Positions 25,590 to 43,350 of a stretch of DNA of 62,971 nt are shown here, in pieces. The stretch covers positions 1 through 62,971 of the forward strand of contig CAZEYP010000007.1 of NCBI GenBank assembly GCA_964515925.1. The letters are read 5' to 3'. The notes under the pieces were generated by a model. The model worked only from the letters and a program-made list of their open reading frames with translations. It searched no databases and was not told where the DNA came from. The position numbers were made by a program, and so were the translations under genes. Origin of the DNA: an uncultured Nitrospirota bacterium (GTDB lineage: Bacteria > Nitrospirota > Thermodesulfovibrionia > Thermodesulfovibrionales > JdFR-85). Within the stretch, counting starts at the first letter, position 1, and every line of letters begins with the position of its first letter.

Positions 25590-26330
25590 ATGGAAATGGT
25601 AGAAATATCCTATCCATTAGCCTTTATGGCTGGCATCGTATCTTTTATTTCTCCCTGTGTCCTTCCTCTTATTCCATCTTATCTCTCTTATATAACGGGT
25701 ATATCCTTTGAGGAACTGACAAATAAAGCCAGCATAAATAAGGTCTGATACCTGAGTCTTGCTCATGCAATCTTTTTTGTAACTGGTTTTTCTATTGTAT
25801 TTATATCGTTAGGAGCTTCTTCATCAGTAATTGGTAAGGTCTTAAATAATTATCAGGATGCGATAAGGATTTCTGGTGGAATAATGATAATTATCTTCGG
25901 ACTGTTTATTGCAGATGTAATCAAGATAGATTTCCTGCTCAGAGAGAGAAGGCTTAACTTTGCAGAAAAACCTGCGGGGTATTTAGGAACTTCCCTGGTA
26001 GGAATGGGCTTTGCTGCAGGCTGGACTCCCTGCATTGGTCCGATTCTCGGCAGCATTCTGATGTATGCTGGTGCACATGGCTCTGTATCCTATGGTGTTA
26101 AACTACTTGGTGTATATTCGTTTGGTCTTTCCTTACCATTTATAATATCGGCCGTTGGATTTAACTTCTTTTTAAGTTATTCCAGAAAAATTTTAAGACA
26201 CATGAAGACCATCAAGATTATTTCAGGAATTTTTCTTATTATTTTTGGTATCCTTCTGTTTTCTAATATGATTAGCGAACTTTCTGGTCTTTTCCCTGAT
26301 TTCGGTCTTGATCTTCCTCTTCCAAAATAA
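25590..26330 (+). pseudogene. ccdA: Cytochrome c biogenesis protein CcdA with an in-frame TGA
   Basis: SFISPCVLPLIPSYLS and FAAGWTPCIGPILG motifs lie in one frame across TGA 25746-25748 (NKV*YLS). Confidence 0.88.
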
Positions 26331-26389: not shown

Positions 26390-26887
26390 ATGATGAGGTA
26401 CAAAAAGCACATTGGTTTTTTAGTCTTGTTGGCAGTATTTCTTACCTTTAATGGCAAGGGTGTACAGGCAAAGGAGGTTACATTAATGGATGTGGAAAGG
26501 GTTACTGACCTGCTTATGAGCCCGGGGTGTAATTATATGTACACACTGACCAACTGTCCATCGGCTGAGGCAGAGCAGATGAGAGAAATCGTAAGAGATA
26601 AACTGTGAAACGGTGAGTCCACCGAGGCCATACTGAATTACTTTGAAGAGATTTATGGCCCCAGGATGCTGGCACAGCCAAAGAAAAAAGGCTTTTATTT
26701 CATTGCCTGGTGGTTTCCCTATTTTTTGATATTTGATGTATTCCTCCTGATAGGTCTGATTTTATATATCTGGCAAAAAAGGGGTAAAAGTGATAGTACA
26801 ACTTCAGAGCGGTCTGAACCTGACGACAGGGATGAGGCTGAAATAGAGGCGCTCCTTGAAGAGGAGCTGAGGATGTTTAAGGGATGA
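26390..26887 (+). pseudogene. ccmH: CcmH/NrfF-like protein with an in-frame TGA
   Basis: LMSPGC...NCPSAEAEQMR; frame continues over TGA 26606-26608 (DKL*NGESTEAILNYFEEIYGPRMLAQP). Confidence 0.75.
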
Positions 26888-27448
26888 AGAACTTTCTGAG
26901 AAGCCTATTTATTATCCCTTTTTTCATACTGGTGGTTGCACTATTAACCGGAGTATTTTCAGGTAAAGAAAAAACAGCTAAAAAACACCCCCGCCCAACA
27001 ATAGGTGAGAAGGCAAGAGACTTTGCCTATCCAGACCTGAATGGAAAAAGTAAGGCTTTCGGATTACTTTGGCAAGAAAGTGATATTTTTGAATATCTGG
27101 GCAACCTGGTGTACTTCCTGTAAAAAGGAGTTACCAACCGTGCAGAGGATGTACGAGAAACTAAAAGGCGACGACCTTGTGGTTCTTGCAGTAAGCATAG
27201 ATGCACTTGGCAAGAAGGCTGTTGAGCCCTTCATGAAGAAATACGGCTCAGATTTTCCTGTTTTGCTCGACACCACAGGCTCGATTCAGCTTCTCTATGG
27301 AACCACTGGTGTGTCTGAGACCTTCATTATAGACAAAAGCGGAAAGATTGCCTATGTGGAGATTGGCGCAGGAGACTGGACCGACCCAGAAAAAGAGGCA
27401 CTGCATAGTGATTCCCTACAGGACAATGGTTATTTCACCTCAGGATGA
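26884..27448 (+). pseudogene. TlpA/ResA thiol-disulfide oxidoreductase, frameshifted
   Basis: TM anchor and ARDFAYPDLNG in one frame, NIWATWCTSC in the next; shift at A-run 27045-27049; C-terminus appears to run into the next gene near 27395. Confidence 0.8.
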
Positions 27449-30191: not shown

Positions 30192-30503
30192 TTAGCAGGG
30201 TTTGGGCTTGCCTTTCTCCTTGGCATACCCTTTTCCATGTCATTCTGTCCATTCTGCGTGCCTGTGGTTCTTAGTATTCTGACAGTGGCTGCTGCCACTG
30301 GAAAACTATGGTACTCTGCCCTTCTTATGTTATTCTTCTCACTTGGCAGGGGGATTCCGCTTGTTATTGCAGGGGTATAGGTTGGTGCATTTAAAAAACT
30401 GCAAAGATTAAAAGCCTACCTCAAGTGGATTGAAAAGTTAGGAGGGGTAATACTTCTGCTAATGGGCCTTTATTATCTTTACGATGTGTTGACCCTCTAC
30501 TGA
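30192..30503 (+). pseudogene. 3' fragment of a second CcdA/DsbD-family gene with an internal TAG
   Basis: FCPFCVPVV, GRGIPL, then AGV*VGAFKK...WIEKLGGVILLLMGLYYL*; TAG at 30378-30380. Confidence 0.75.
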
Positions 30504-30562
30504 GAAGAAAGTAATATAATTTAAAATTACGATATGCTTTTCTGAACTGATAAATCAGCCTT

Positions 30563-31165
30563 TCAGCTTATTCCTTGCCCCGGTCCGCCGGTAGTGTTTG
30601 ACGACTTTGAAAGCTCCTTCTCAAAGACCTCATAGAGTCTGAGTTCCATCCTGAATGTCCTGAGTTTCAGGGTCTCATCCCAGTTGTAAATCTCTGGTGG
30701 GCCGTATTTTTTGTTTTTCAGCACATACCGCTCAAGATACTCCCTGTCAGGAAAAACTATTATATATTCCTTAACGCCAAACCTCTCATAAAGGGCCTTC
30801 TTTTCCCGACGGTCCTTCAGTTCCGTGGCAGGAGAGGTTATCTCTATTACAAGATCAGGGGCGCCCTGAATATTGTCTTCTGTGATCTTCTTCTTTGAGC
30901 AGACAACGAACAGATCAGGCTGAACCACATTGAACTCATCAAGCACCACATCCGTGGGGGCATAAAAGGGAATACAACTTTTTAAGGCATCCTTGTTGTT
31001 TACAAATACCTCGGTTAGTCTCCACAAAATCCTCTGGTGTCTGGTCTTAGGTGCAGGTGACATAGAGTAGGCCTGCCCATCAATCAACTCCCACCTCTCA
31101 TCATCAGGCCATCTGAGGTAGTCCTGGTAGGTGAACCGCCTCTGTTTCTTAAGTGCAAGTGGTAT
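30563..31165 (-). CDS. Uma2/DUF820 endonuclease-fold protein, copy 1 (start codon position reads ATA; possibly inactive)
   Basis: WELIDG...MSPAP, VVQPDL, PDLVIEITSP; ATA at 31163-31165 aligns with the ATG of copy 2. Confidence 0.8.
   Translation of the reverse strand: MPLALKKQRRFTYQDYLRWPDDERWELIDGQAYSMSPAPKTRHQRILWRLTEVFVNNKDALKSCIPFYAPTDVVLDEFNVVQPDLFVVCSKKKITEDNIQGAPDLVIEITSPATELKDRREKKALYERFGVKEYIIVFPDREYLERYVLKNKKYGPPEIYNWDETLKLRTFRMELRLYEVFEKELSKSSNTTGGPGQGIS
30614..31158. repeat. 545-bp direct repeat, copy 1 (Uma2 coding sequence)
   Basis: Appears identical by eye to 34683-35227 (offset 4069). Confidence 0.92.
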
Positions 31166-31213
31166 AGTTAATTATAAAGGTTCCTTTCTGGATTTAACAT
31201 GGGTTGTTTTGAA

Positions 31214-31264
31214 TTGACAAATGATATTTTAAACGATATAATATGAGTAATTACTCATATGAGT
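31214..31264 (+). promoter_or_regulatory. Consensus sigma-70 promoter with an overlapping palindromic operator
   Basis: TTGACA(31214)-17-TATAAT(31237); perfect palindrome ATATGAGTAATTACTCATAT at 31241-31260 and overlapping ACTCATATGAGT at 31253-31264. Confidence 0.85.
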
Positions 31265-31278
31265 TAAGGCTAATATGT

Positions 31279-31611
31279 ATGAATCAGTGGATTGAAGACA
31301 CGGCAAGACTTTTAAAGGTACTTGGAGAGCCCAACCGACTTGGCATCCTGTTTGCCATTGGTAAGGAGTCAAGGTCGGTTACAGAGATAATCCGCATCAC
31401 AGGGCTTTCGCAGACCCTTGTGTCTTTTCATCTCAGGGCATTGAGGCGAGCAGATATCGTAAGAACAAGACGGGATGGGCCTTTTATTTACTATAGCCTG
31501 AAAAACCCACATCTTATAGACATACTTATGGAAATCTCAGAGTTAATAGGAAAGACAATGCCCGTAGAGACTGTTTCGCCAGAGATGGTAAATAGTATAA
31601 AGAGGAGGTAG
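31279..31611 (+). CDS. ArsR/SmtB-family repressor
   Basis: LKVLGEPNRLGIL, SQTLVSFHLRAL and RRDG.FIYYSL; ATG 31279 preferred because ATG 31243 precedes the predicted start site. Confidence 0.9.
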   Translation: MNQWIEDTARLLKVLGEPNRLGILFAIGKESRSVTEIIRITGLSQTLVSFHLRALRRADIVRTRRDGPFIYYSLKNPHLIDILMEISELIGKTMPVETVSPEMVNSIKRR

Positions 31612-31614
31612 CCA

Positions 31615-32097
31615 ATGAAAAAAGAATTACTGTTAATAGGAGTATTTATTGTGTTGTTATTTACCGGATGTAACGAAAGCAGTGCTAAAGGTGTCCTGAA
31701 AGATTATACCTTTGTCACCGTAGATGGTAAGAGTATAAACTTTAACAATCTCAAAGGGGCTCTTATAGTAGTAATCAATATAGGTGGGCATTGGTGAAGG
31801 ATATGCAAAAGAGAAGCTCCCGAACTTCAGAGGGCCTATGCGAAATTCAAAGACAGAGGTGTAATCTTTATTGGTGCCTTTGTCCTTGGAAACAACCAGC
31901 AGATAAAAAAGTTTCGGGAGCGATATCATCTGACCTTTCCAGTTGGGAAGGAAAATGGTCTGTCAAAAAAACTTCACATTATTGCACTTCCAACTACAGT
32001 ATTTATAGGAAAAGACGGAAGAATAAAAAAACGCCATATTGGAGAGATTACATTTGAAGATTTAGATAGAGAAATTAAGAAGTTACTTAAACAATAA
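31615..32097 (+). CDS. Putative selenoprotein: TlpA/AhpC-TSA-like lipoprotein with UxxC
   Basis: Lipobox FTGC; reading through TGA 31795-31797 gives HW-U-RIC-KREAPEL...ALPTTVFIGKDG, a complete 160-aa thioredoxin fold. Confidence 0.85.
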
Positions 32098-32112
32098 AAG
32101 GAGGTTTAAAAA

Positions 32113-32382
32113 ATGAAGATGTTTGAGGAAATGATGAAGAAAATAATGGGCGGGATGATGAAGCCAGAGGACATGCCCGAGATGATGACTGCTATGATGG
32201 ACAGGTGTTTCAGTGAGATGAAACCCAATGACAAAATGGCATTTATGGAGAACATGATGCCCAGATGTATGAATATGATGTTTAAGGATATGTCTGTAAA
32301 GGAAAGGAAAAGATTTGCAGAAAAGATGCTTAACAGGATGTTTGGAGAGTTAAAAAAACATGCGGAAGAGGATACTCAATGA
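32113..32382 (+). CDS. Very Met-rich small protein with two Cys
   Basis: GGAGG SD; about a quarter of residues are Met. Confidence 0.75.
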   Translation: MKMFEEMMKKIMGGMMKPEDMPEMMTAMMDRCFSEMKPNDKMAFMENMMPRCMNMMFKDMSVKERKRFAEKMLNRMFGELKKHAEEDTQ

Positions 32383-32395
32383 GGAGGTGATAAAG

Positions 32396-32581
32396 GTGAG
32401 TGGTGAGACAATAAGGGATGTCATTGCCAGTCTTGAGCCTTCTGTTAAAAAGGAACTGCTTAACAGCCTTGTTAGTATGCTAATTGAGGAACTTACAGAG
32501 GCTGAAAAAAAGGAACTCCTTCAGAGGGTTGCTGCAGGGGGCAGAAAAGGCCGAGAGATGATAGAGATGGTTGAGCATTGA
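32396..32581 (+). CDS. Small helical hypothetical protein
   Basis: GAGGAGG before GTG 32396; position within the operon. Confidence 0.65.
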   Translation: MSGETIRDVIASLEPSVKKELLNSLVSMLIEELTEAEKKELLQRVAAGGRKGREMIEMVEH

Positions 32582-32605
32582 ATAAAGGAATGCACGGATT
32601 CAGGT

Positions 32606-32875
32606 GTGAATCCGCTTGAGATGAGCAAGGAACTTATTTCTGCATTCAGTCATTCCTATGAACTGGCAACATACTCAACACCTGAATTGAGGACATTGTT
32701 TAATGACTGGCTTTCAGAGATTGAGCAGGAGGTGGTCTCCTTTCTTAAAGACAGACACAGGGTTGACCCTGACGAGGTGGCAGGACATCTGAGGATAGGC
32801 CGTGAGAGTGCAATATTCATCCTGAGCAAACTTGCCAGGGAAGGAAAGATAAACATGCAGGCATATGGGTTTTAA
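32606..32875 (+). CDS. Hypothetical protein with C-terminal winged-helix-like segment
   Basis: TPELRTLFNDWL and A.HLRIGRESAIFILSKLAREGKI. Confidence 0.65.
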   Translation: MNPLEMSKELISAFSHSYELATYSTPELRTLFNDWLSEIEQEVVSFLKDRHRVDPDEVAGHLRIGRESAIFILSKLAREGKINMQAYGF

Positions 32876-32899
32876 CATATCTTATTGGGAGGTTATTCC

Positions 32900-33190
32900 A
32901 TGAAACTATTTGATTTCAAAAGTGGTGCCATTGCTTCTGCACTGGCATATGCATTTTGTTGACAGCTACCGCTGGTCCTGGCCAGTGTGGGGCTGGGGAG
33001 TTTTACATTTTCCTTATGGTTTATAAAGTACAGATGGCTCTTTCTTGTAATTACTTTTGTATTTCTTGCTATTGCGTGGTATATGACCTTCAAAGGTCAG
33101 AGGAAACCGGGCAAATGGAGCAAAGCAATACTTTATGGTACCACAGTGTTGAGTATTACACTTGTGCTTTACAGTTTTATAACCACATAA
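32900..33190 (+). CDS. Putative selenoprotein: MerT/MerF-like transporter with Cys-Sec in place of Cys-Cys
   Basis: GGAGG and ATG 32900; AYAFC-U(32960-32962)-QLPLVLASVGLG aligns with the MerT CC..PLVL..LG motif; three TM helices; hairpin directly 3' of the TGA. Confidence 0.8.
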
Positions 33191-33201
33191 AGGAGGCAGT
33201 G

Positions 33202-34638
33202 ATGTCGGACAAAGACAGAAAAACAAAACCTGACAGTTGCTGACCCTCAACCGACTCTGCCAGTGGGCAGGACAGGATAAGTCAGGAGTCAGGAGTCAGA
33301 AGTCAGGAGGGGGATGCAGAAAAGGGCGCTCCAAAGGCCGAGCACTGCATGGTCTGTGGTGAGAAGCTGCAGTATCTTGAGACCTCACGCAGTTTGAAGT
33401 GTCTATACTGCGGCAAGGAAGAGGAAGGTCACATTACCTGCCCTAAGGGACACTACATCTGTGAGCACTGCCACAACCAGGACGCAATGCGGATGATAGA
33501 GGATGTGGCCTTCAGCACTAAATCTCAAAATCCAGTTGAGATAGCCGAGCTGATGCTCTCCTTTCCAGGGCTTCCAATGCTTGGCTGCCATCATGCCTAC
33601 ATCGCAGGTGGTGCACTCATGGCGGTAATAAAAAACTCTGGCACAAGAAAGATAACCAATGATGATATAAAGGAGGTCTTTAAGAGGACTAAACGCCAGG
33701 CACATGGTGGATACTGCGGCCTTACCGGGGTTTGCGGCATTGCCCCTGCAATAGGAGCGGTTTTTGCTGTATTGACTGGGTCAAAGTGTGGCACAGACAG
33801 AGAGCAGCGGATTACAATGGAGGCAGTCACGAGGGTTACAAGGGCGATAACAGAACTAACAGGGCCCAGTTGCTGCAAGGCATATGTGAAAAGCTCCCTT
33901 GAGGTGGCCACAGAATCTCTCAGGGAATCCCTTGGAATTGAACTTCCCACGCAGAGGGTGTCGGCCTGTCTTCATTCCGAGAAACATCCCCACGGCTGCC
34001 GGGAGATGAAATGTCCATACTTTGGCAGTAGTGGTTCAGATAATGACAGGCTCGAAAGTCAGGTTGAAAACCCGCTTCCGTCACTCAATGATTTTTCCTC
34101 TAAGGATGAGACAATGGATTTTCTCATTAAAAAGGCCCTTGAACTCGGTGCTGAGAGGGCAAAGTTAATTGACACAAATACAGTGGTTGTTCAAGAGTGG
34201 GTTAGATGGAAATGCCGTTACGGCTGTCCTCTTTATGGAAAAGATGCCTATCATCCTCCCTGTGCTCCTGATGCAGAGACCACCCATAGGATGCTTTCTG
34301 AATACAAAAGAGCCATACTGATGAACTGCCCAAAGGGAAAGCCTCTTACAGAGGTGGCGGTAAGACTTGAAGGTATTGCCTACAGGATGGGATTTTATAA
34401 GGCATTTGCGATGACAGCACTTTCCTCAGGACCTCCTGGCATGACCTGACCTTCGGGTGAGGAGGATGCCCGGGAGGACTCCGAGAGAGAGGCACAGAAG
34501 GAGATGAGGATCAGACCCCTTATGGAGGCATGTGGTATTGATGTCTTTAAGACCGCCCGTGCAAATGGCTTTGAGATTGACACCAGGAAAGAAACTTACG
34601 GCAGGTGGAACTACTTTGCCCTCTTACTGATTGAGTAA
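33202..34638 (+). CDS. Putative double-Sec protein: N-terminal CU, DUF5714 and DUF2284 (478 aa)
   Basis: AGGAGG and ATG 33202; in-frame TGAs at 33241-33243 (SC-U-P) and 34447-34449 (GMT-U-P); readthrough restores the DUF2284 tail RPLMEACGIDVF. Confidence 0.8.
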
Positions 34639-35240
34639 TTCCCTGAACTTTTTCCGGGTTCTTTATCATTGCCCTCTTTTGACTCCTTCTCAAAGACCTC
34701 ATAGAGTCTGAGTTCCATCCTGAATGTCCTGAGTTTCAGGGTCTCATCCCAGTTGTAAATCTCTGGTGGGCCGTATTTTTTGTTTTTCAGCACATACCGC
34801 TCAAGATACTCCCTGTCAGGAAAAACTATTATATATTCCTTAACGCCAAACCTCTCATAAAGGGCCTTCTTTTCCCGACGGTCCTTCAGTTCCGTGGCAG
34901 GAGAGGTTATCTCTATTACAAGATCAGGGGCGCCCTGAATATTGTCTTCTGTGATCTTCTTCTTTGAGCAGACAACGAACAGATCAGGCTGAACCACATT
35001 GAACTCATCAAGCACCACATCCGTGGGGGCATAAAAGGGAATACAACTTTTTAAGGCATCCTTGTTGTTTACAAATACCTCGGTTAGTCTCCACAAAATC
35101 CTCTGGTGTCTGGTCTTAGGTGCAGGTGACATAGAGTAGGCCTGCCCATCAATCAACTCCCACCTCTCATCATCAGGCCATCTGAGGTAGTCCTGGTAGG
35201 TGAACCGCCTCTGTTTCTTAAGTGCAACCGGCATGTTCAA
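34611..35240 (-). CDS. Uma2/DUF820 endonuclease-fold protein, copy 2
   Basis: Same motifs as copy 1; intact ATG. Confidence 0.88.
   Translation of the reverse strand: MNMPVALKKQRRFTYQDYLRWPDDERWELIDGQAYSMSPAPKTRHQRILWRLTEVFVNNKDALKSCIPFYAPTDVVLDEFNVVQPDLFVVCSKKKITEDNIQGAPDLVIEITSPATELKDRREKKALYERFGVKEYIIVFPDREYLERYVLKNKKYGPPEIYNWDETLKLRTFRMELRLYEVFEKESKEGNDKEPGKSSGNYSISKRAK
34683..35227. repeat. 545-bp direct repeat, copy 2
   Basis: Matches 30614-31158. Confidence 0.92.
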
Positions 35241-35308
35241 TTATAACATACTTTAAAGATTTCCTTAACATGGCCGACTTAGGTTATTAACTATGTTTTT
35301 TTATGTTC

Positions 35309-35340
35309 TTCACAATTTCTTCGCAATTAAGTGTTATGGT
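35309..35340 (+). promoter_or_regulatory. TTCACA-N5-TTCGCA-N9-TATGGT promoter element
   Basis: Same geometry as the boxes at 20.8, 21.8, 25.5 and 26.3 kb. Confidence 0.6.
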
Positions 35341-35474
35341 AATAATCAAGAGTGCAGGGTTGTGGTCGTCAAGTGAGAAGTGAAATATAGTTACTATGAA
35401 AGAAATTTAATGTTGTAAGTTCATATAAAAACAAGTATAATGAACACTGAAGGAAAGAAAGGAGGGGAAAGATT

Positions 35475-35726
35475 ATGCATGGCACCGGTTTTGGTATGGG
35501 ATTTGGTGGATTTGGTCTGGGCTGGGTCTTCATGATACTTTTCTGGGGAGTAATCATCCTTGTTGCTGTTTACCTGATAAAAGCTGTATTTACTGATAAA
35601 AAATCAGATAGCCCTGGTAAGGATTCTGAGACAGCCGAGGATATACTCAAGAGAAGACTTGCAAGTGGTGATATTTCTACTGAGGAGTATGAAGAAAAAC
35701 TAAGAATACTTAGAGAAGGGAGGTGA
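35475..35726 (+). CDS. SHOCT-domain small membrane protein
   Basis: MG.GG.G..FMILFW TM segment; AEDILKRRLASGDISTEEYEEK. Confidence 0.85.
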   Translation: MHGTGFGMGFGGFGLGWVFMILFWGVIILVAVYLIKAVFTDKKSDSPGKDSETAEDILKRRLASGDISTEEYEEKLRILREGR

Positions 35727-35730
35727 AGGA

Positions 35731-35793
35731 ATGAAGATAAAGAAGGTCACAAAGCAGGCATCATCAACCTGCAAGTGCCACAGTTCCTGTTAA
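35731..35793 (+). CDS. Candidate 20-aa Cys-rich peptide MKIKKVTKQASSTCKCHSSC
   Basis: GGAGGT SD 6 nt upstream, overlapping the previous stop codon. Confidence 0.4.
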   Translation: MKIKKVTKQASSTCKCHSSC

Positions 35794-35868
35794 GAAAAAG
35801 GGCGATAGGCAATGGGCAAATTAACCAATAACTAATTACCAATAACGAATTTAAGGAGGTTTCAGTAT

Positions 35869-36516
35869 ATGAAACGAATGTTGTTATTAATTATTGTAGC
35901 CCTTGGGTTAATGGCAGGTTCAGCCTTTGCTCAGATGGGTAATATGATGGGGCAGGGTATGATGGGACAGCCTCAGCAGGAGCAGGCACCTGTACAGCAG
36001 ATGCCCTACCAGATGGGCCCTGGTGCAGGATATGGTTACGGAATGATGGGTCCAGGTATGATGGGTGGTTATGGAATGGGCTATGGAATGATGGGGCAAG
36101 GTTATGGTATGGGCCCTGGCATGATGGGTGGTTACGGCATGGGGCCTGGCATGATGGGTTATGGTGGCGGCTATGGAATGATGGGTAGAGGAATGGGCCC
36201 CGGAATGATGATGGGCCCTGGGATGATGGGAATGATGCACAGAATGATGATGGGCCCGGGAATGATGGGTTATGGAATGATGGGCCCTGGCTATGGAATG
36301 GTTCCTGGATACTCAAAGGAGTATCAGAAATTTCTTGATGAAACCCGTGATCTCAGAAAAAAGTTGAATGAAAAGAGGTTTGAGTATTTTGAGGCTCTGA
36401 GGGACCCAAAAACAAAGCCTGAGACTTTAACAAAGTTAAGAGACGAGATAGTTAAACTTCGCAGAGAGATATACAAAAAGAACCCCTTTGCAGGTTTCGG
36501 CTGTTATGGTTATTAA
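35869..36516 (+). CDS. Exported Gly/Met-repeat protein with ZraP/Spy-like helical C-terminus
   Basis: Signal peptide; many GMMGPG repeats; YQKFLDETRDLRKKL...EIVKLRREI. Confidence 0.75.
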   Translation: MKRMLLLIIVALGLMAGSAFAQMGNMMGQGMMGQPQQEQAPVQQMPYQMGPGAGYGYGMMGPGMMGGYGMGYGMMGQGYGMGPGMMGGYGMGPGMMGYGGGYGMMGRGMGPGMMMGPGMMGMMHRMMMGPGMMGYGMMGPGYGMVPGYSKEYQKFLDETRDLRKKLNEKRFEYFEALRDPKTKPETLTKLRDEIVKLRREIYKKNPFAGFGCYGY

Positions 36517-36585: not shown

Positions 36586-37416
36586 ATGTTACAGGGTGTA
36601 ATGCTCTTGTGGTTTTTACTTACTGCAGTTTCTGTGGTTTTTGTAGCAATAGATATTGTAAAAACACCTGAGTCTACAGTGCTTAAATGGGGATTTGTAT
36701 TGATTACTGCTTACATCGGTCCGGTTGGTGCATTCCTTTATGTGCTTGGTTGCAGAGAGCCACTTCCAGGTCTTCATAAACAATATACCTCACATAGATG
36801 GCGTCAGGTATTGGGCTCTACCATGCACTGCGTATCTGGTGATGGGTTGGGAATTCTTGTAGGTGCAGTTATTGGTGGGCTAATTCATTTTTCCAGACCA
36901 CTTGAGATAGGTCTTGAGTATCTTCTTGGGTTTGGTTTTGGATGGACCATCTTTCAGGCACTCTTTATGAAAGACACTGCTGGAGGCTCCTTTTTAAAGG
37001 CATTGAAGAAGACCTTTATTCCAGAACTTGTTTCAATGAATTATCTGATGGCTGCAATGGTGGTGGTAATGTCGTTTGGAATGAAGATGATTCCAGACAG
37101 TAATAACCCTTTGACCATGGGTTTTTGGTTTGTTATGTCAATGTCTTTATTAACCGGTTTTGTCTTTGCCTATCCGGTGAACTGGTGGCTGGTATCAAAC
37201 AATCTAAAACACGGAATGATGACAGTAAGACCTGCAGGAACGGCTCATAACATTGAGAAACAAGGTGGCAGTAATGCAAAACATGGCTTGGATATGAATA
37301 CTCATTCAACAGATATGCAGACGGCCAGGGTTTCTACCACCTCTTTGGTTTTAACGGTGGTTATGTCATTTATTGTTTTTGGCATTGGTATTGGAGTTGC
37401 ATTTGCATGGGGGTAG
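36586..37416 (+). CDS. DUF4396-domain membrane protein
   Basis: STMHCVSGDG.G and FAYPVNWWLV..NLKHGM. Confidence 0.85.
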   Translation: MLQGVMLLWFLLTAVSVVFVAIDIVKTPESTVLKWGFVLITAYIGPVGAFLYVLGCREPLPGLHKQYTSHRWRQVLGSTMHCVSGDGLGILVGAVIGGLIHFSRPLEIGLEYLLGFGFGWTIFQALFMKDTAGGSFLKALKKTFIPELVSMNYLMAAMVVVMSFGMKMIPDSNNPLTMGFWFVMSMSLLTGFVFAYPVNWWLVSNNLKHGMMTVRPAGTAHNIEKQGGSNAKHGLDMNTHSTDMQTARVSTTSLVLTVVMSFIVFGIGIGVAFAWG

Positions 37417-37453: not shown

Positions 37454-38647
37454 CTATAAAGAATTAACCTCCTTAACGAGGAATTTAGATTTATGAGAAA
37501 GCATAGCGAAAAGGGTTCTCAGGAGTTTATGAGCAGTGGCCAGGATGGCTTTTTTATAAGGCAGGCCGTCAGCTCTTCTTTTAAGGAAGTAAGACTTAAA
37601 AGTGTCATTGAATCTAACAACACTTGTGGTCATAAGATAAATGACTCTTCTGAGGTGACGATTACCTCGTTTAGATATTCTGCTTGTGCCTTGAAACTTA
37701 CCCGACTGATAGACAGAGGGGTCGATACCTGCATAGGCAATAAGGCTTTTATGGGAAGAGAAGTTTTCAATACTACCGATTTCAGCAAGGAAAGTGGCAC
37801 CTGTAGTGGAATCAATGCCATCAATGGAGGTAATGATTTCGAGTTCATCAATGGCAATGCTCTGGCATTGCTCTTTGAGGGCTCTGTCGAAGGTTTCGAG
37901 TCTTTTCATAAGGTGCAGAAGGGTGGAAATTTTCTCACTGAGGATGAGTTCTTTAGCAGGGCTTATGGAGGCGATAGAGTTTTTAGCGGCATGGATGAGC
38001 TTTGTAGGGGACACAGAGGCTCTTCTGCCTCTACCATTAAGACTGAAGGCCTCAGAGAGGGTTTCGGGATTAGAGACGGCAATAATGCGAGCAGAGGGGA
38101 ATTGCTGAAGGAACTGGAGCATGGTTTTAGTGAAGGGGTTACAGAGGCTGAGGAGTTCAGGGAAGGTAGTTTGAAGGAGTCTTTTGATTTCGTTTTTAGT
38201 AGAGGCGATAAGGGAGGCGATGGATTCTCTTTCTCTGGCAATATCTCTAAGGTCAGAGAGGTTCTGGGAGATATGGGTCTGGGAGATGGAGTCTTTATGG
38301 AGGAGGATAAAACGGGCAATGGTGAGGGAGTCTTTTTTGTCGGTTTTGGTTTTTCTGAGGGTGAGTTTAGCGAAGTTAAAGATTAGAAGGGGATTGATAA
38401 CGACGGTATTAAGGCCTTTGTTGGAGAGGAAGGAGAAGAGATTGATGTGGTAACAGCCTGTGGATTCCATGGCAATGAGTGCAGAGGGAGGGCTGCAGCA
38501 GTGGGAGGAAATGTGTTTAAGGAGGGTGGAGAAGCCCTCTTTGTCCATACTGGCAGAGAAAGAGAAGAGGGGCTGGCCTTTTGTGTCAATACCAGTAGCA
38601 GAGAAGGAATCCCTGGAGACATCGATACCGACGAAGAGACTATACAA
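37454..38647 (-). CDS. IS110-family transposase/recombinase
   Basis: GIDVS, MESTGCY, KTKTDKKD (DEDD) and AYAGIDPSVYQSG...ISKRGNRHLR; AAGGAGG before TTG. Confidence 0.95.
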   Translation of the reverse strand: MYSLFVGIDVSRDSFSATGIDTKGQPLFSFSASMDKEGFSTLLKHISSHCCSPPSALIAMESTGCYHINLFSFLSNKGLNTVVINPLLIFNFAKLTLRKTKTDKKDSLTIARFILLHKDSISQTHISQNLSDLRDIARERESIASLIASTKNEIKRLLQTTFPELLSLCNPFTKTMLQFLQQFPSARIIAVSNPETLSEAFSLNGRGRRASVSPTKLIHAAKNSIASISPAKELILSEKISTLLHLMKRLETFDRALKEQCQSIAIDELEIITSIDGIDSTTGATFLAEIGSIENFSSHKSLIAYAGIDPSVYQSGKFQGTSRISKRGNRHLRRVIYLMTTSVVRFNDTFKSYFLKRRADGLPYKKAILATAHKLLRTLFAMLSHKSKFLVKEVNSL

Positions 38648-38889: not shown

Positions 38890-39957
38890 ATGCCGAAAGA
38901 CCCCATATGTAATATGGAAGTAGATGAAAAGGATGCCCTTACAACGGAATGTGATGGACAGACCTACTATTTCTGCTCCGAAGGTTGCAGGGATAGGTTT
39001 CTTAAAGACAAGGCATGTAAACTTCCAAGAACCACCTACGACCTGATAATTATCGGTGGTGGTCCTGCAGGGCTTACTGCTGCAGTGTATGCCGCCACTT
39101 TGAAAATAGATGCATTCCTGATAGCAAAAGACCTGGGTGGACAGGCAATTGATAGCACCAAGATAGAAAACTACATGGGATACGATTTCATAACAGGCCC
39201 TGAATTGACAAAGCGTTTTCAGGACCAGTTGATACGCTCCCACTACATAGATCACCTTATGTCGCAGGTTGAAAAGATCGAGCCCTTTGAGGAGGGCTTC
39301 AGGGTGATTACATCAGAGTTGCGGAAATACACCGCAAAGGCACTGATTGTGGCAACCGGTATGACCAGAAGAAAATTGAAGATTCCTGGTGAGGAGGAGT
39401 TCCAACGAAGAGGTGTGTTTTATGGCAATATCCAGGACCTTGCCTTTGTTCAGGGTGAGGATGCAGTGGTTGTTGGTGGTGGCAACTCGGCAATGCAGAT
39501 AGTTGAAAATCTTCATACAGTGGCAAGGAATATCCACCTGGTTTCCGATTCCGAATTGAAGGCAGACCCTGTGATAATCGATAGGATAAAGAGATTCAAA
39601 AATCTCAGGATTTACGAGGGCTACAGAACCATTGAGTTTAAAGGCAACAGGACCCTGAGTGCTGTGGTCATTAAAAAGATGGCATCAGATGAAAAACTGG
39701 AATTACCTGCAAAGGGTGTGTTTGTGGCTATCGGGCTTCAACCGAATTCCTCGCTTGTTTCAGACCTGTGTGACCTGAATGAGCGGGGTGAGATAATTAT
39801 TAATCCCGACTGCTCAACATCTTATCCTGGAATCTTTGCTGCCGGTGATGTAACTAATGCCTTTGGAAAAAGAATCATCATAGCCTCTGGTGAAGGAGCT
39901 AAGGCTTCAATGGCAGCAAGACAGTATCTGCTTGATTTAAGAAAGAAAGAGAAGTAG
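38890..39957 (+). CDS. YHS domain fused to a thioredoxin-reductase-like flavoprotein lacking CxxC
   Basis: KDPICNM...YYFCSEGC; GGGPAG, GGGNSA and GIFAAGD; GVFYGNIQD where CxxC is expected. Confidence 0.85.
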   Translation: MPKDPICNMEVDEKDALTTECDGQTYYFCSEGCRDRFLKDKACKLPRTTYDLIIIGGGPAGLTAAVYAATLKIDAFLIAKDLGGQAIDSTKIENYMGYDFITGPELTKRFQDQLIRSHYIDHLMSQVEKIEPFEEGFRVITSELRKYTAKALIVATGMTRRKLKIPGEEEFQRRGVFYGNIQDLAFVQGEDAVVVGGGNSAMQIVENLHTVARNIHLVSDSELKADPVIIDRIKRFKNLRIYEGYRTIEFKGNRTLSAVVIKKMASDEKLELPAKGVFVAIGLQPNSSLVSDLCDLNERGEIIINPDCSTSYPGIFAAGDVTNAFGKRIIIASGEGAKASMAARQYLLDLRKKEK

Positions 39958-39960
39958 TTT

Positions 39961-41025
39961 TTGAAGGTTCTTGAGAGCATAGAAAAGAGCCTGTTTGTTC
40001 TTCATACAGGTCAGGTTACCTGCCATGACACAAATGGTAATCAAATCCCCTGTGCGGGGACAGGTCAGGATGGAGAATATAGAACCGGCATCAAATGGCC
40101 TGAGCCTCGTTTCCAGGTCTCAGGCAACACAGTGCTTGACCGGCTTACAGGTCTTATATGGACCAGGAATGCAAATCCTTTAGAACTACCGCTTACATGG
40201 CAGGAGGCCTTTGAATACATTGAGAAGATGAACAGAGAGAGAGCCTTTGGTTATTCAGACTGGCGTATGCCCAACAGAAGAGAACTCAGAAGTCTCCTCA
40301 GTTATCAAACGAAAAAGCCGGCATTACCGGAGAGTCACCCCTTTGAAAATGTCTTCAGTGGATGGTACTGGACATCTACCACAGCTGCAATCAATCCAGC
40401 CTATGCCTGGTATATCCATATGGAAGGTGCCAGGATGTTTTATGGTGAAAAGAGGCAGTTTTTTCTCCTCTGGCCTGTAAGAGGCAGTGGCTCTTCGGTG
40501 CTTGCTGCCACAGGACAAAGAGGATGTTTTGATCAGGATGGGCGTCAGGTTCCCTGTTCTGGTACCGGGCAGGATGGGGAGTTTCAATATGGAATTCACT
40601 GGCCTGTACCAAGATTTCAGGTGCACGGTGAGGTGGTGCTTGACAGACTAACCAACCTGTGCTGGCTTAAAAGGGCAGACCTTGCAGGAAAGACGGTTAC
40701 ATGGCAGGAGGCATTATTGATTGTTAAAGAACTGAATGCAGGCAGGGGAACTATTACATTATGGCGTCTGCCAAATATAAATGAACTTGAAACACTTATT
40801 GACTGCAGCACCCACAGCCCGGCCCTGCCCGAAGGACATCCCTTTGAAGATGTTCGGGAGGGATACTGGTCGTCAACCACCAGCATGTATGAGCCCGACT
40901 GGGCCTGGGCTTTGTATCTTAAAAAGGGTGCCCTTGGAGTGGGACAGAAAAGAGGTACCTATTTTCATGTGTGGCCGGTTTGCAATGCTTCAGATATGTT
41001 AGAAAAAAGGATATTAGATGGATAA
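39961..41025 (+). CDS. Tandem DUF1566 (Lcl) domain protein
   Basis: Two repeats of D.LT.L.W, WR.P...EL and YWSSTT, each preceded by TGQ..C.D..G..C.GTGQDGE. Confidence 0.85.
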   Translation: MKVLESIEKSLFVLHTGQVTCHDTNGNQIPCAGTGQDGEYRTGIKWPEPRFQVSGNTVLDRLTGLIWTRNANPLELPLTWQEAFEYIEKMNRERAFGYSDWRMPNRRELRSLLSYQTKKPALPESHPFENVFSGWYWTSTTAAINPAYAWYIHMEGARMFYGEKRQFFLLWPVRGSGSSVLAATGQRGCFDQDGRQVPCSGTGQDGEFQYGIHWPVPRFQVHGEVVLDRLTNLCWLKRADLAGKTVTWQEALLIVKELNAGRGTITLWRLPNINELETLIDCSTHSPALPEGHPFEDVREGYWSSTTSMYEPDWAWALYLKKGALGVGQKRGTYFHVWPVCNASDMLEKRILDG

Positions 41026-41890
41026 AATTAATGAAAATAAGACATACAATCATGCTACAGACCCTGTATGTGGTATGAGGGTAAACAGTGATAGTCCTTT
41101 TTCCTTTTTGTACAACCAGAAGGAATACAGATTTTGCTCTGATAAATGCAGAGACCTGTTTCAGCAGGAGCCGGAACTTTTTCTTTCTATGCAGAACAAA
41201 AGGCAGATGCTTTTTGAACAGGAGCGTACCAGGAGTTTGAAAAAGATGGCTGACCAGATAACCCATGAGATTAGAAATCCCCTTACCTCAATAGGTGGTT
41301 TTGCAAGAAGAATATTGAAGAACCTTCCAGAGGACGCACCTGACAGGGAGTACATGAAGAGGGTTATTGAGGATGTAGAAAGGCTTGAACAGATGGTAAA
41401 CAGGATTGTCAGATTTGAATCCGAGCAGTTGATATTGGAGAAAACAGACCTGAATGCACTCATTAAGGAAATAGTTGATATGTTTGATGTGCTATTGAGG
41501 GGAAACAGGATTACTCTCAAACTGTCGCTGGAGGAACTGCCCGAGATTTTTTTGGATAGGGCAAAGATGAAGTCTGCACTGTCAAATATAGTAAAAAATG
41601 CCATTGAGGCAATGGAAGGTGCGAAGAGGATACTGACTATTTCTACCCATCTGGTGGGTGATGAGGTTTTAATTTCTATATCGGATACTGGCAAGGGAAT
41701 ACCCACGGATAAGATCAAATACATCTTTGATCCCTTCTTTACCTCAAAGATATACGGTCCGGGCCTGGGCCTTTCCTTTGTAAAAGAAGTTTTGCAGGCT
41801 CATAAAGGTAGAATAGAGGTGCAAAGCACCCCGGGCAGGGGAACAACCTTTAAGATTAAAATTCCTGCAGGAAGGGAGGCCAGAAGATGA
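41018..41890 (+). CDS. Soluble histidine kinase with N-terminal YHS domain
   Basis: TDPVCGM...FCSDKC; HEIRNPL, NAIEAM, DTGKGI, FDPFFTSK and GPGLGL. Confidence 0.88.
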   Translation: MDKINENKTYNHATDPVCGMRVNSDSPFSFLYNQKEYRFCSDKCRDLFQQEPELFLSMQNKRQMLFEQERTRSLKKMADQITHEIRNPLTSIGGFARRILKNLPEDAPDREYMKRVIEDVERLEQMVNRIVRFESEQLILEKTDLNALIKEIVDMFDVLLRGNRITLKLSLEELPEIFLDRAKMKSALSNIVKNAIEAMEGAKRILTISTHLVGDEVLISISDTGKGIPTDKIKYIFDPFFTSKIYGPGLGLSFVKEVLQAHKGRIEVQSTPGRGTTFKIKIPAGREARR

Positions 41891-42849: not shown

Positions 42850-42866
42850 GGATTTGGTAAGGCTAC

Positions 42867-43328: not shown

Positions 43329-43350
43329 AGCAATAAACAAAGGAGGCAAG

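What the first reader, a model, noticed from the sequence alone, without database searches (positions are those of the whole stretch)
31214..34638. ArsR-controlled operon hiding four in-frame TGAs in three putative selenoproteins
Seen: a consensus sigma-70 promoter and palindromic operator precede seven co-oriented genes. Three of these are split by the ORF track only at TGA codons (31795, 32960, 33241, 34447). Each split rejoins in frame into a complete-looking protein, and at least three of the TGAs sit where Cys is expected (W-U-xx-C, C-U, C-U). Known: Sec is encoded by UGA and replaces catalytic Cys. Inference: this is a compact selenium-dependent metal(loid) sensing, uptake and redox module (Sec-TlpA, Sec-MerT-like, Sec-DUF5714/DUF2284, plus Met-rich small proteins). 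Standard annotation would report it as fragments. I do not know this combination as a described system.
Basis: partly seen in the sequence, partly recalled or inferred. Interest (0 to 1): 0.9.

Follow-up and report, generated by a model that had tools for sequence, protein, structure and literature searches.

The report
Five-selenocysteine metal operon, core already catalogued

Summary
All four reported in-frame TGAs (31795, 32960, 33241, 34447) exist. The operon therefore has six genes, four of them selenoproteins.

TGA is kept at all five columns in every homologue retrieved (10-21 hits per site, 35-95% identity), with conserved residues on both sides. Three sites have a conserved downstream hairpin, one with significant covariation. 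The MbdU-2 hairpin has no statistical support, and the TlpA site shows no consensus hairpin.

TGA is an ordinary stop in 11 of 32 other genes checked, so the code is not reassigned. No Sec machinery lies in the window, and the rest of the genome could not be read.

The combination is not wholly undescribed. The DUF5714+DUF2284 protein scores 761 bits against NCBIfam NF045648, 'metal-binding double selenoprotein MbdU' (cutoff 600; Haft & Tolstoy 2025). UxxC TlpA-type selenoproteins are known. The regulator and the U-x3-C protein are sub-threshold relatives of TsoR and TsoA. The MerT-like C-U aligns with the MerT Cys-Cys pair.

The operon recurs in Nitrospirota next to metal-ATPase genes. A thiophilic-metal selenol relay is my inference, not a shown function.

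A 545-nt perfect repeat brackets the operon, and one assembly of the same strain lacks it.

The parts
31214..31242 (+). sigma-70-type promoter, TTGACA-17 nt-TATAAT
   Evidence: It is a 12/12 consensus match, the only perfect one in 30400-35900. TTGACA-type promoters sit at the same place in homologous loci.
31241..31260 (.). operator-like perfect palindrome ATATGAGTAATTACTCATAT, overlapping the -10 box and the transcription start
   Evidence: Found. The TATGAGTA-N2-4-TACTCATA core is conserved in L002, L004, L005, L011 and L018.
31279..31611 (+). ArsR/SmtB-family repressor gene (TsoR-like, 110 aa, no Cys)
   Evidence: Pfam HTH_5 gives 47.8 bits. NF033788 gives 78.4 bits, above its cutoff of 55. 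The best named model is TsoR NF045707 at 81.3 bits, below its cutoff of 115.
31615..32097 (+). TlpA/ResA-like thioredoxin-fold lipoprotein with the motif W-U-R-I-C; Sec codon at 31795-31797
   Evidence: Pfam AhpC-TSA gives 61.1 bits across the TGA. TGA is kept in 14 of 14 homologous hits at 35-53% identity. The N-terminus has a signal peptide and the lipobox LFTGC, read directly from the sequence. No consensus SECIS hairpin was found.
32113..32382 (+). Met-rich small protein (89 aa, 23 Met, 2 Cys); ends at a genuine TGA stop
   Evidence: It has no family hit. It is conserved in L005, L011, L017 and L044-47. It resembles the Met-rich N-terminal halves of the wider TsoA-like family.
32396..32875 (+).
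   Evidence: The fused product covers NF045695 TsoA positions 1-144 of 144 (E 1.3e-29, 103 bits, cutoff 170). TGA is kept in 16 of 16 hits at 53-95% identity. It is also TGA in L048, where the source had translated it as W.
32595..32614 (+). SECIS-like hairpin CGGAUUCA-GGUG-UGAAUCCG, 13 nt after the UGA
   Evidence: Seven pairs are invariant in 10 sequences, wobble positions included. The only change in the stem (A-U to G-U) keeps the pair. The loop and the flanking wobble positions vary.
32900..33190 (+). MerT-like small membrane protein (96 aa) with F-C-U-Q-L-P in the first transmembrane helix; Sec codon at 32960-32962
   Evidence: NF033560 merT_RC607 gives E 3.5e-11 and 43 bits (cutoff 130). 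BLASTP against the annotated Bacillus cereus MerT puts C-U on its C-C pair (44% identity over 61 aa). TGA is kept in 10 of 10 Nitrospirota-type homologues.
32976..32998 (+). SECIS-like hairpin, 8-bp stem with a 7-nt loop AGUGUGG
   Evidence: It is the consensus structure in 5 sequences. The window's MFE is in the lowest 0.4% of local background. There are too few sequences to test covariation.
33202..34638 (+). mbdU, the double selenoprotein: an N-terminal tail carrying C-U-P, a zinc-ribbon-like CxxC pair, DUF5714, a linker, and DUF2284 carrying T-U-P. Sec codons at 33241-33243 and 34447-34449
   Evidence: NF045648 gives 760.9 bits against a cutoff of 600, covering 4-468 of 468. Pfam finds DUF5714 (155 bits) and DUF2284 (91 bits). 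TGA is kept at both columns in every homologue.
33256..33271 (+). SECIS-like hairpin after the first mbdU UGA (UCUGCC-AGUG-GGCAGG)
   Evidence: In 15 sequences, 83% of cells are paired and 4 pairs show compensatory changes. The covariation score is 0.433, against 0.127 in shuffles (0 of 500 reach it). It collapses when the 3' partner is slid by one or more columns.
34450..34477 (+). candidate SECIS hairpin directly after the second mbdU UGA (9-10 bp stem, 9-nt purine loop)
   Evidence: A comparable hairpin starting right after the UGA is the MFE structure in 8 of 13 sequences. The fixed-register pair count is not better than shuffles, so this one is inconclusive.
30614..31158 (.). upstream copy of the 545-nt perfect direct repeat (Uma2 endonuclease gene copy without its start codon)
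   Evidence: It is an exact repeat of 34683-35227. One assembly's contig ends exactly at 31158, and another skips from here to 35228.
34683..35227 (.). downstream copy of the 545-nt repeat, inside the intact Uma2 gene 34611-35240 (- strand), which converges on and overlaps the end of mbdU
   Evidence: Shown. Uma2 also follows the operon in L003 and L044-46.

Best explanation
The locus is a six-gene operon (31214-34638) of a Nitrospirota (Thermodesulfovibrionia-like) bacterium. It is transcribed from a consensus sigma-70 promoter and probably repressed by its first product, a Cys-free ArsR/SmtB-type (TsoR-like) regulator that binds the palindrome overlapping the -10 box and the start site.

Five UGA codons in four of the six genes are decoded as selenocysteine:
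- a periplasmic TlpA-like lipoprotein (W-U-xx-C);
- a cytoplasmic TsoA-like protein (U-x3-C);
- a MerT-like membrane protein (C-U in the first transmembrane helix);
- the catalogued double selenoprotein MbdU (C-U in a flexible N-terminal tail, and T-U-P in the DUF2284 domain).

Shown here:
- reading-frame continuity across each TGA;
- family membership of the rejoined products;
- conservation of TGA at all five columns;
- conserved downstream hairpins at three sites;
- conservation of the promoter and operator;
- recurrence of the gene set across Nitrospirota.

Inferred mechanism, about 35-40% likely as worded: the proteins form a selenol/thiol hand-over chain for a thiophilic metal or metalloid (Cu(I)/Ag(I), Hg(II) or an As/Se species).
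1. The MerT-like protein carries the metal across the membrane on its C-U pair, as MerT does with its Cys-Cys pair.
2. The TlpA-like selenoprotein keeps the exposed selenol/thiol pairs reduced on the outer side.
3. The Met-rich protein and the TsoA-like protein buffer the metal in the cytoplasm.
4. The C-U tail of MbdU collects it and delivers it to the DUF5714/DUF2284 core, where the second Sec sits in the loop that holds a CxxCxxC...C cluster in ordinary DUF2284 proteins.
For: Frame continuity and family matches:
- All the rejoined products match a single family across their TGA.
- MbdU is a full-score member of its family: 760.9 bits against a cutoff of 600.

Conservation of TGA in every homologue, with conserved flanks on both sides:
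- TlpA-like 14 of 14.
- TsoA-like 16 of 16, plus L048.
- MerT-like 10 of 10.
- MbdU site 1: 20 of 22, and the other two are one-column alignment offsets (C then TGA).
- MbdU site 2: 18 of 18.

SECIS hairpins:
- The TsoA-like stem is invariant at wobble positions while the loop varies.
- The MbdU-1 hairpin shows covariation that 0 of 500 shuffles reach.
- The MerT-like site has a conserved 8-bp hairpin.

Other support:
- TGA is a normal stop in 11 of 32 family-supported genes of the window.
- The MerT-like C-U aligns with the C-C pair of an annotated MerT.
- Canonical DUF2284 proteins have GPCxLCxxC..C where MbdU has GPPGMT-U-PSGEE.
- The C-U-P/A tail also occurs on standalone DUF5714 proteins.
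- The promoter and operator are conserved.
- The operon is complete in L005 and L044-47, complete except for a tblastn-detectable Met-rich gene in L004, and a core of regulator, TsoA-like and MbdU is found in L002, L011, L013, L017, L018 and L061.
- The context is soft-metal genes. In the window these are MerR, CopC, YHS proteins, a YHS+HMBD P-type ATPase and a Gly/Met-rich protein. In L044 and L061 they are P-type ATPases, with HMA domains and a MerR regulator in L044.
Against: - No tRNA-Sec, selA, selB or selD lies in the 63-kb window. The rest of the genome could not be read.
- No consensus SECIS hairpin was found after the TlpA-like UGA in 10 sequences. The MbdU-2 hairpin has no statistical support.
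- No Rfam SECIS match was found.
- The regulator has no Cys, so it does not look like a thiolate-type As, Hg or Cd sensor.
- No reductase, lyase or efflux pump lies inside the operon, so the fate of any imported metal is unknown.
- MbdU has no informative solved relative. There is nothing by sequence and nothing significant by fold for the DUF5714 part. For DUF2284 there is only a weak resemblance to the nitroreductase-like core of QueG and reductive dehalogenases (E about 0.1).
- No experiment bears on any part of the mechanism.
Confidence: 0.75

Rival explanations
1. The operon does not handle a metal. It handles reactive sulfur or selenium species (persulfide, selenide, selenotrisulfide) or performs a redox or organometallic reaction. 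On this reading MbdU is an enzyme rather than a binding protein, and the Sec residues are catalytic.
For: - The closest named relatives, TsoA and TsoR, belong to a system whose other listed member, TsoB, is a rhodanese/DsbD fusion.
- The third-best NCBIfam match of the regulator is the sulfite sensor BigR.
- DUF2284 is fused to arsenite methyltransferase in NF041536. Its model weakly resembles the cobalamin/FeS enzymes QueG and reductive dehalogenase.
- One DUF5714 relative carries an AhpD/CMD domain (P0116).
- The regulator has no metal-type Cys site.
Against: - BigR-type sensing needs two Cys, and the regulator has none.
- The MerT-like carrier, the Met-rich proteins and the neighbouring metal ATPase, CopC and YHS genes point to metal ions.
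- The fold matches are not significant.
Confidence: 0.17
2. It is a selenium-containing version of a mercury-resistance (mer) operon that takes up and detoxifies Hg(II).
For: The MerT-like protein aligns with the Bacillus MerT of a merR-merE-merT-merP-merA operon, C-U on C-C. Sec has very high affinity for Hg (general chemistry).
Against: - No MerA, MerB, MerP or MerR lies in the operon or in any homologous locus.
- The MerT scores are far below the family cutoffs: 17.5 against 32.9 for Pfam, and 43 against 130 for NCBIfam.
- The regulator is ArsR-type, not MerR-type.
- The surroundings are copper-type (CopC, YHS, HMBD, Met-rich).
Confidence: 0.06
3. The TGAs are ordinary stops. The genes are pseudogene fragments, sequencing errors or separate small genes, or TGA is reassigned to Trp or Gly in this organism.
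For: - The same window holds two other in-frame TGAs (25746 in ccdA, 26606 in ccmH) and a frameshifted resA-like gene. These look like decay.
- No Sec machinery is in the window.
- One database homologue shows W at the TsoA-like column.
Against: - TGA is kept at the same five columns across dozens of genomes at 35-95% identity, with conserved residues downstream. Decay or error cannot do that.
- The operon sequence is identical or nearly so (99.8-100%) in four independent assemblies.
- The W in that homologue is a TGA translated with another code by the source.
- TGA ends 11 of 32 well-supported genes at the end of their family profiles.
- Conserved hairpins follow three of the sites.
Confidence: 0.02

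Closest known systems
MbdU, metal-binding double selenoprotein (NCBIfam NF045648; Haft & Tolstoy 2025, mSystems 10:e0141724, as listed in the review PMC13188914)
   Same: It has the same architecture (DUF5714 + DUF2284). It has two Sec residues, including the N-terminal C-U motif. It matches the full profile above the curated cutoff.
   Different: Nothing structural differs. This is a member of the family. What I add is the conserved operon around it, the SECIS evidence and the regulator site. I could not read the original paper, so I cannot say how much of the neighbourhood it already describes.
The tso selenoprotein system: TsoA (LULAxC), TsoB, TsoC, TsoX, TsoY and the regulator TsoR (NCBIfam NF045695, NF045694, NF045708, NF045707)
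   Same: An ArsR/SmtB regulator comes first. A small protein carries Sec four residues before a Cys and matches the TsoA profile end to end. Several selenoproteins sit in one operon.
   Different: Both scores are below the cutoffs (TsoA 103 against 170, TsoR 81 against 115). The motif is H-U-I-K/x-E-C, not L-U-L-A-x-C. No TsoB, TsoC, TsoX or TsoY is present. Here the partners are MbdU, a MerT-like protein, a TlpA-like protein and a Met-rich protein.
MerT of mer operons (Bacillus RC607 type, NF033560; Pfam PF02411)
   Same: The size is about 97 aa. The hydrophobic pattern matches. The vicinal pair in the first helix aligns residue for residue (C-C against C-U), followed by xxP-L-[VI]-L.
   Different: The second Cys is Sec. 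The scores are well below the family cutoffs. There is no mer context. The published 'putative mercuric transport' selenoprotein has a different motif (C/SxxU; review table). NF045683 is a MerT/CopZ fusion, whereas this is a stand-alone form.
UxxC thioredoxin-fold selenoproteins of the TlpA/ResA/redoxin type (review PMC13188914, Table 1: PF13098, cd02966, PF08534, PF00578)
   Same: It has the thioredoxin fold, with Sec replacing the first Cys of WCxxC, and it is exported or membrane-anchored.
   Different: It is a lipoprotein embedded in the MbdU operon. No recognisable consensus SECIS hairpin was found here.

Membership tests
Bacterial selenoprotein gene (UGA-Sec recoding) | An in-frame TGA with one continuous family match across it | tested here: met
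   All five sites meet this. AhpC-TSA, TsoA, merT_RC607 and MbdU each span their TGA(s).
Bacterial selenoprotein gene (UGA-Sec recoding) | TGA conserved in orthologues, and/or aligned with Cys in homologues | tested here: met
   - TGA is kept in all homologues at all five columns.
- Cys pairing is clear for TlpA (the CxxC column; L042 has C-G-I-C) and for MerT.
- MbdU-2 lies within one column of a Cys of the DUF2284 CxxCxxC cluster.
- MbdU-1 and TsoA-like have no Cys-type counterparts. Their relatives either lack the segment or are Met-rich there.
Bacterial selenoprotein gene (UGA-Sec recoding) | A SECIS hairpin within about 40 nt downstream of the UGA, with G in the apical loop | tested here: inconclusive
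   - Met for TsoA-like, MerT-like and MbdU-1 (covariation).
- MbdU-2 has a hairpin in 8 of 13 sequences, but without statistical support.
- The TlpA-like site has no consensus structure in 10 sequences.
Bacterial selenoprotein gene (UGA-Sec recoding) | selA, selB, selC (tRNA-Sec) and selD present in the genome | not testable with these tools
   None is in the window (no tRNA at all; Pfam on the large ORFs). Other contigs of the genome cannot be fetched.
MbdU (NF045648) | Whole-protein score at or above the curated cutoff (600 bits), with full-length coverage | tested here: met
   The score is 760.9 bits, E 5.2e-229, covering profile positions 4-468 of 468.
MbdU (NF045648) | Two Sec residues: C-U near the N-terminus and one in the DUF2284 domain | tested here: met
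   The TGAs are at 33241 (S-C-U-P) and 34447 (M-T-U-P). Both are conserved. The review lists the motif CU with 2 Sec.
TsoA (NF045695) | Score at or above the cutoff (170 bits) | tested here: not met
   The score is 103.4 bits, although the whole profile (1-144 of 144) is covered.
TsoA (NF045695) | The L-U-L-A-x-C motif | tested here: not met
   Here and in the homologues (and L048) the motif is [HYRE]-U-I-x-x-C, mostly H-U-I-K-E-C. Only the U-x3-C spacing is shared.
TsoR (NF045707) / ArsR-SmtB metalloregulators | Score at or above the cutoff; winged-helix HTH_5 | tested here: inconclusive
   TsoR scores 81.3, below its cutoff of 115, so that is not met. The generic ArsR/SmtB subfamily NF033788 scores 78.4, above its cutoff of 55, and Pfam HTH_5 is met. 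It has no Cys, so it cannot have an alpha3-type thiolate site.
MerT (PF02411 / NF033560) | Family score at or above the cutoff | tested here: not met
   Pfam gives 17.5 against 32.9. merT_RC607 gives 43.3 against 130.
MerT (PF02411 / NF033560) | A vicinal Cys pair in the first transmembrane helix | tested here: met
   C-U aligns with the C-C of Bacillus cereus MerT.
MerT (PF02411 / NF033560) | mer operon context (MerR, MerP, MerA) | tested here: not met
   These are absent from the operon and from all homologous loci examined.
TlpA/ResA thioredoxin-fold oxidoreductases | Thioredoxin-fold family match with a CxxC-type active site | tested here: met
   AhpC-TSA gives 61.1 bits and Redoxin 50.2, both above cutoff. 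The motif is W-U-R-I-C.

The most novel reading that the evidence does not exclude
The operon is a self-contained cassette, gained and lost by recombination, in which selenocysteine sits at every hand-over point of a transmembrane soft-metal relay: the outer-face TlpA-like protein, the MerT-like carrier, the TsoA-like chaperone and the tail of MbdU. MbdU would then not merely bind the metal(loid). It would transform it, by a reductive or organometallic reaction carried out by its DUF2284 domain, which resembles the nitroreductase fold of QueG and reductive dehalogenases. On this reading a single Sec replaces the usual four-Cys cluster of that domain.
Probability: 0.15. Interest if true: 0.75.

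Novelty: new member of a known kind. Interest (0 to 1): 0.5.

Why it matters
Five Sec codons in 3.4 kb, in four of six genes, is an unusually dense use of selenium. It makes a compact test bed for two questions: what Sec offers over Cys in metal handling, and what the uncharacterised domains DUF5714 and DUF2284 do.

The practical lesson is for annotation. Public gene calls for this operon are fragments, and the MerT-like gene is mostly not called at all. The TsoA-like and MerT-like members fall below the current curated cutoffs, so they would still be missed.

The conserved promoter and operator give a direct handle for finding the inducer. The repeat-bracketed layout suggests the cassette can be lost or gained.

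Tried and rejected
- **Rfam.** A scan at gathering score over the whole window, and at E up to 10 over the operon, gave no SECIS family or other meaningful hit.
- **tRNA scan.** No tRNA, and so no tRNA-Sec, was found in the window.
- **Sec machinery.** Pfam on 20 large ORFs found no SelA, SelB or SelD.
- **Haft & Tolstoy 2025.** The paper is not held under its PMC id or its DOI. I used the review table instead.
- **Structure of full-length MbdU.** I modelled the inter-TGA fragment P0001 (pLDDT 84.9) and the closest non-Sec DUF2284 protein P0121 (pLDDT 86.1) instead.
- **Fold searches.** The P0001 model had no significant PDB match, best E 0.76. The DUF2284 model gave only weak matches to QueG, nitroreductases and reductive dehalogenases, E 0.09-1. 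The PDB sequence search found nothing.
- **Homologue search with the MerT-like protein.** It returned only two post-TGA fragments.
- **My first pair count for the MbdU-1 hairpin.** I had the register wrong by two columns and corrected it.
- **Extra in-frame TGAs.** A mechanical scan of the whole window was mostly noise. It gave two further real cases, in ccdA and ccmH, which I read as probable decay because a frameshifted resA-like gene lies beside them.
- **Global TGA reassignment.** Rejected, because TGA is a normal stop in 11 of 32 supported genes.

Full report
**1. The observation**

The sequence shows in-frame TGAs at 31795, 32960, 33241 and 34447, as reported. Reading through them gives three products:
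- a 160-aa thioredoxin-fold protein (Pfam AhpC-TSA 61 bits, Redoxin 50 bits) with the motif W-U-R-I-C;
- a 96-aa MerT/MerC-like membrane protein with F-C-U-Q-L-P;
- a 478-aa fusion of DUF5714 (155 bits) and DUF2284 (91 bits).

The promoter is a perfect TTGACA-17-TATAAT at 31214-31242, the only 12/12 match in 5.5 kb. A perfect 20-nt palindrome, ATATGAGTAATTACTCATAT (31241-31260), follows it.

**2. A fifth TGA**

NCBIfam matched the small ORF 32606-32875 only to the C-terminal half of 'LULAXC motif selenoprotein TsoA'. The ORF before it (ending in TGA at 32579-32581) is in the same frame. The fused 159-aa product covers the TsoA profile end to end (positions 1-144 of 144, E 1.3e-29), with H-U-I-K-E-C at the junction.

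The operon therefore has six genes, not seven:
- regulator, 31279-31611;
- TlpA-like, 31615-32097;
- Met-rich, 32113-32382;
- TsoA-like, 32396-32875;
- MerT-like, 32900-33190;
- MbdU, 33202-34638.

Four of them are selenoproteins, carrying five Sec codons in all.

**3. Are these Sec codons?**

I fetched 30 genomic loci with the large protein (mostly Nitrospirota/Thermodesulfovibrionia MAGs). I added 12 metagenomic loci with the TlpA-like protein and further contigs by exact-protein look-up.

At each of the five columns, every homologue that spans the site has TGA:

| Site | TGA kept | Identity range |
|---|---|---|
| TlpA-like | 14 of 14 | 35-53% |
| TsoA-like | 16 of 16 | 53-95% |
| MerT-like | 10 of 10 | 46-90% |
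| MbdU site 1 | 20 of 22 | 39-85% (all 22 hits) |
| MbdU site 2 | 18 of 18 | 58-87% |

- The two exceptions at MbdU site 1 are one-column alignment offsets in which the Cys is followed by TGA (for L011; for L061).
- Residues on both sides of each TGA are conserved: W-U-xxC, VEH-U-IKECTDSG, FC-U-QLPL, C-U-PS and T-U-PSGE.
- One database homologue appeared to have Trp at the TsoA-like column. Its DNA has TGA there, and the source had used another translation table.
- TGA ends 11 of 32 family-supported genes in the window, so the code is not reassigned.
- The operon sequence is 99.8-100% identical in four independent assemblies of the same strain, so read error is excluded.

**4. SECIS elements**

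- **TsoA-like site.** A 7-8 bp hairpin with a GGNG loop starts 13 nt after the UGA. Its stem is invariant in 10 sequences even at wobble positions. The single change, A-U to G-U, keeps the pair. The loop and the flanking wobble positions vary.
- **MbdU site 1.** A 5-6 bp hairpin with an NGNG loop shows compensatory changes in 4 pairs. It has 83% pairing and a covariation score of 0.433, against 0.127 for shuffles (0 of 500 reach it). The signal collapses when the partner is slid by any offset.
- **MerT-like site.** An 8-bp hairpin with a 7-nt loop is conserved in 5 sequences and is unusually stable against local background.
- **MbdU site 2.** A 9-10 bp hairpin starts right after the UGA in 8 of 13 sequences. 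A fixed-register count is no better than shuffles, so this site is inconclusive.
- **TlpA-like site.** No consensus structure was found in 10 sequences. This is the one site where the usual signal is missing.
- Rfam has no matching family.

**5. Cys counterparts**

- The TlpA-like Sec is at the first Cys of the thioredoxin CxxC. A weak homologue, L042, has C-G-I-C there.
- The MerT-like C-U aligns directly with the C-C pair of the annotated Bacillus cereus MerT, which sits in a merR-merE-merT-merP-merA operon.
- In stand-alone DUF2284 proteins, the loop that holds GPPGMT-U-PSGEE in MbdU holds GPCxLCxxC...C. The Sec falls within one column of the second Cys. The closest non-Sec relative, P0121, appears to have Ser or a gap there.
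- The N-terminal C-U has no Cys counterpart. Relatives either carry C-U (also on stand-alone DUF5714 proteins: L016, L017, L019, L022, L023, L033) or lack the tail altogether.
- In the wider family around the TsoA-like protein, the corresponding segment is Met-rich, not Cys.

**6. What is already known**

- The large protein scores 760.9 bits against NCBIfam NF045648, 'metal-binding double selenoprotein MbdU' (cutoff 600).
- A 2026 review lists MbdU (motif CU, 2 Sec), TsoA, TsoB, TsoC, TsoX and TsoY, and the ArsM/DUF2284 selenoprotein. It credits all of them to Haft & Tolstoy 2025. I could not obtain that paper.
- UxxC TlpA/redoxin-type selenoproteins and a 'putative mercuric transport protein' selenoprotein (motif C/SxxU) are in the same table.
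- The regulator and the TsoA-like protein fall below the curated cutoffs (81 against 115, and 103 against 170), and the motif differs from LULAxC. They are relatives rather than members.
- The MerT-like protein is far below the MerT cutoffs.
- Public gene calls show the predicted fragmentation. All 120 listed homologues of MbdU are the piece between the two TGAs. The MerT-like gene is mostly not called at all.

**7. Conservation of the operon and its control**

- All six genes are detected in L005 and L044-47. In L004 all but the Met-rich gene are detected.
- A core of regulator, TsoA-like and MbdU is seen in L002, L011, L013, L017, L018 and L061. L061 is on a 3.26-Mb contig.
- The TTGACA promoter and the TATGAGTA-N-TACTCATA palindrome recur at the same place in five loci. 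This supports autoregulation by the first gene.
- The regulator has no cysteine, which argues against thiolate-type sensing.

**8. Function**

The neighbours are soft-metal genes.
- In the window these are MerR (18867-19265), CopC (22291-22626), a Gly/Met-rich repeat protein (35869-36516), DUF4396, a YHS-oxidoreductase, a YHS-histidine kinase and a P-type ATPase with YHS and HMBD domains.
- In L044 they are an HMA-domain P-type ATPase with a MerR regulator, and a second ArsR with another ATPase.
- In L061 a P-type ATPase lies next to the operon.

Adding the MerT-like carrier, the Met-rich protein and the curated name, I commit to a selenol/thiol relay for a thiophilic metal(loid). This is inference. 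No reductase or pump is in the operon.

The structural models gave little:
- The DUF5714 part is a zinc-ribbon plus helical bundle with no PDB analogue.
- The DUF2284 model resembles only weakly (E about 0.1-1, TM about 0.45) the nitroreductase-like core of QueG and reductive dehalogenases.

A sulfur/selenium-trafficking or enzymatic role remains a live rival.

**9. Location and stability**

- The operon (31159-34682) is bracketed by a 545-nt perfect direct repeat, 30614-31158 = 34683-35227. These are two copies of a Uma2 endonuclease gene, and the upstream copy lacks its start codon.
- In another sample, a 21-kb contig of the same strain (99.95% identity) runs ccmC-Uma2-SHOCT without the 4069-nt unit (L053). 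In that sample the operon sits on its own 3.4-kb contig (L060).
- In a third assembly, the 102-kb contig stops exactly at the end of the repeat (L054).
- This is either a presence/absence polymorphism produced by recombination between the repeats, or an assembly ambiguity. Read mapping would decide.
- Uma2 also follows the operon in related genomes (L003, L044-46).

**10. Verdict**

I rate it a new member of a known kind, interest 0.5. Sec decoding is very likely, and the mechanism is plausible but untested.

Noticed in passing
window 25590-26330 (TGA at 25746) and 26390-26887 (TGA at 26606): Two more genes are interrupted by a single in-frame TGA: a CcdA/DsbD_TM gene and a CcmH gene. Their Pfam matches span the TGA. 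Neither TGA is at a Cys column, and neither family is in the review's selenoprotein table. The bases are identical in four assemblies of the same strain. I read them as probable nonsense mutations in a decaying cluster. Unusual Sec sites are not excluded, because conservation in other species could not be tested.
   Followed up: partly
window 26884-27448: A ResA/TlpA-like gene with an ordinary WCTSC motif is split by a frameshift in an A-run near 27035-27045. The signal-anchor and 'DFAYPDLNGK' piece is in one frame, and 'KVRLSDYFGK...WATWCTSC' is in another. This is the third lesion in three adjacent cytochrome c maturation genes.
   Followed up: partly
window 30614-31158 and 34683-35227; L053, L054, L057-L060: A 545-nt perfect direct repeat (Uma2 gene copies) brackets the operon. 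One assembly of the same strain lacks the 4069-nt unit at this site and holds the operon on a separate contig. Another assembly breaks exactly at the repeat. This is either a recombination-mediated gain or loss, or an assembly ambiguity.
   Followed up: partly
window 35869-36516: A 215-aa protein is built of degenerate GYGMGPGMMG-type repeats (tandem 27-33-nt DNA repeats) and has no family match. It is followed by a DUF4396 membrane protein (36586-37416) and preceded by an 83-aa SHOCT-domain protein (35475-35726). It may be a Met-rich Cu(I)/Ag(I) binder.
   Followed up: no
window 37454-38647 (-): An IS110-family transposase (NF033542, 234.6 bits) lies 2.2 kb downstream of the operon, between it and the YHS/P-type ATPase genes.
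   Followed up: no
window 38890-45789: This is a cluster of YHS-domain proteins: a YHS + pyridine-nucleotide-disulfide oxidoreductase (38890-39957), a YHS + histidine kinase (41018-41890) and a YHS + HMBD P-type ATPase (43351-45789). An Lcl_C-domain protein and a beta-propeller lie among them. It looks like a copper or heavy-metal homeostasis island.
   Followed up: no
L018 about 5940-6000; L044 7811-8059 and 8559-8786: In L018 the MbdU tail reads S-U-D-U, with two TGAs two codons apart. In L044-47 and L061 an extra ORF of about 81 aa follows the regulator. In L044-47 a further 75-aa ORF precedes the Met-rich gene. Neither has a counterpart in the window.
   Followed up: no
P0240-P0384, alignment A12: The C-terminal domain of the TsoA-like protein defines a wide family: 254 representatives at E up to 0.001. 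In most of them the N-terminal half is a Met-rich low-complexity region (MMxxMM repeats) with a conserved 'NPMEMCKKMM' segment, and there is no Sec. All 25 sampled members hit only the TsoA model, weakly.
   Followed up: partly
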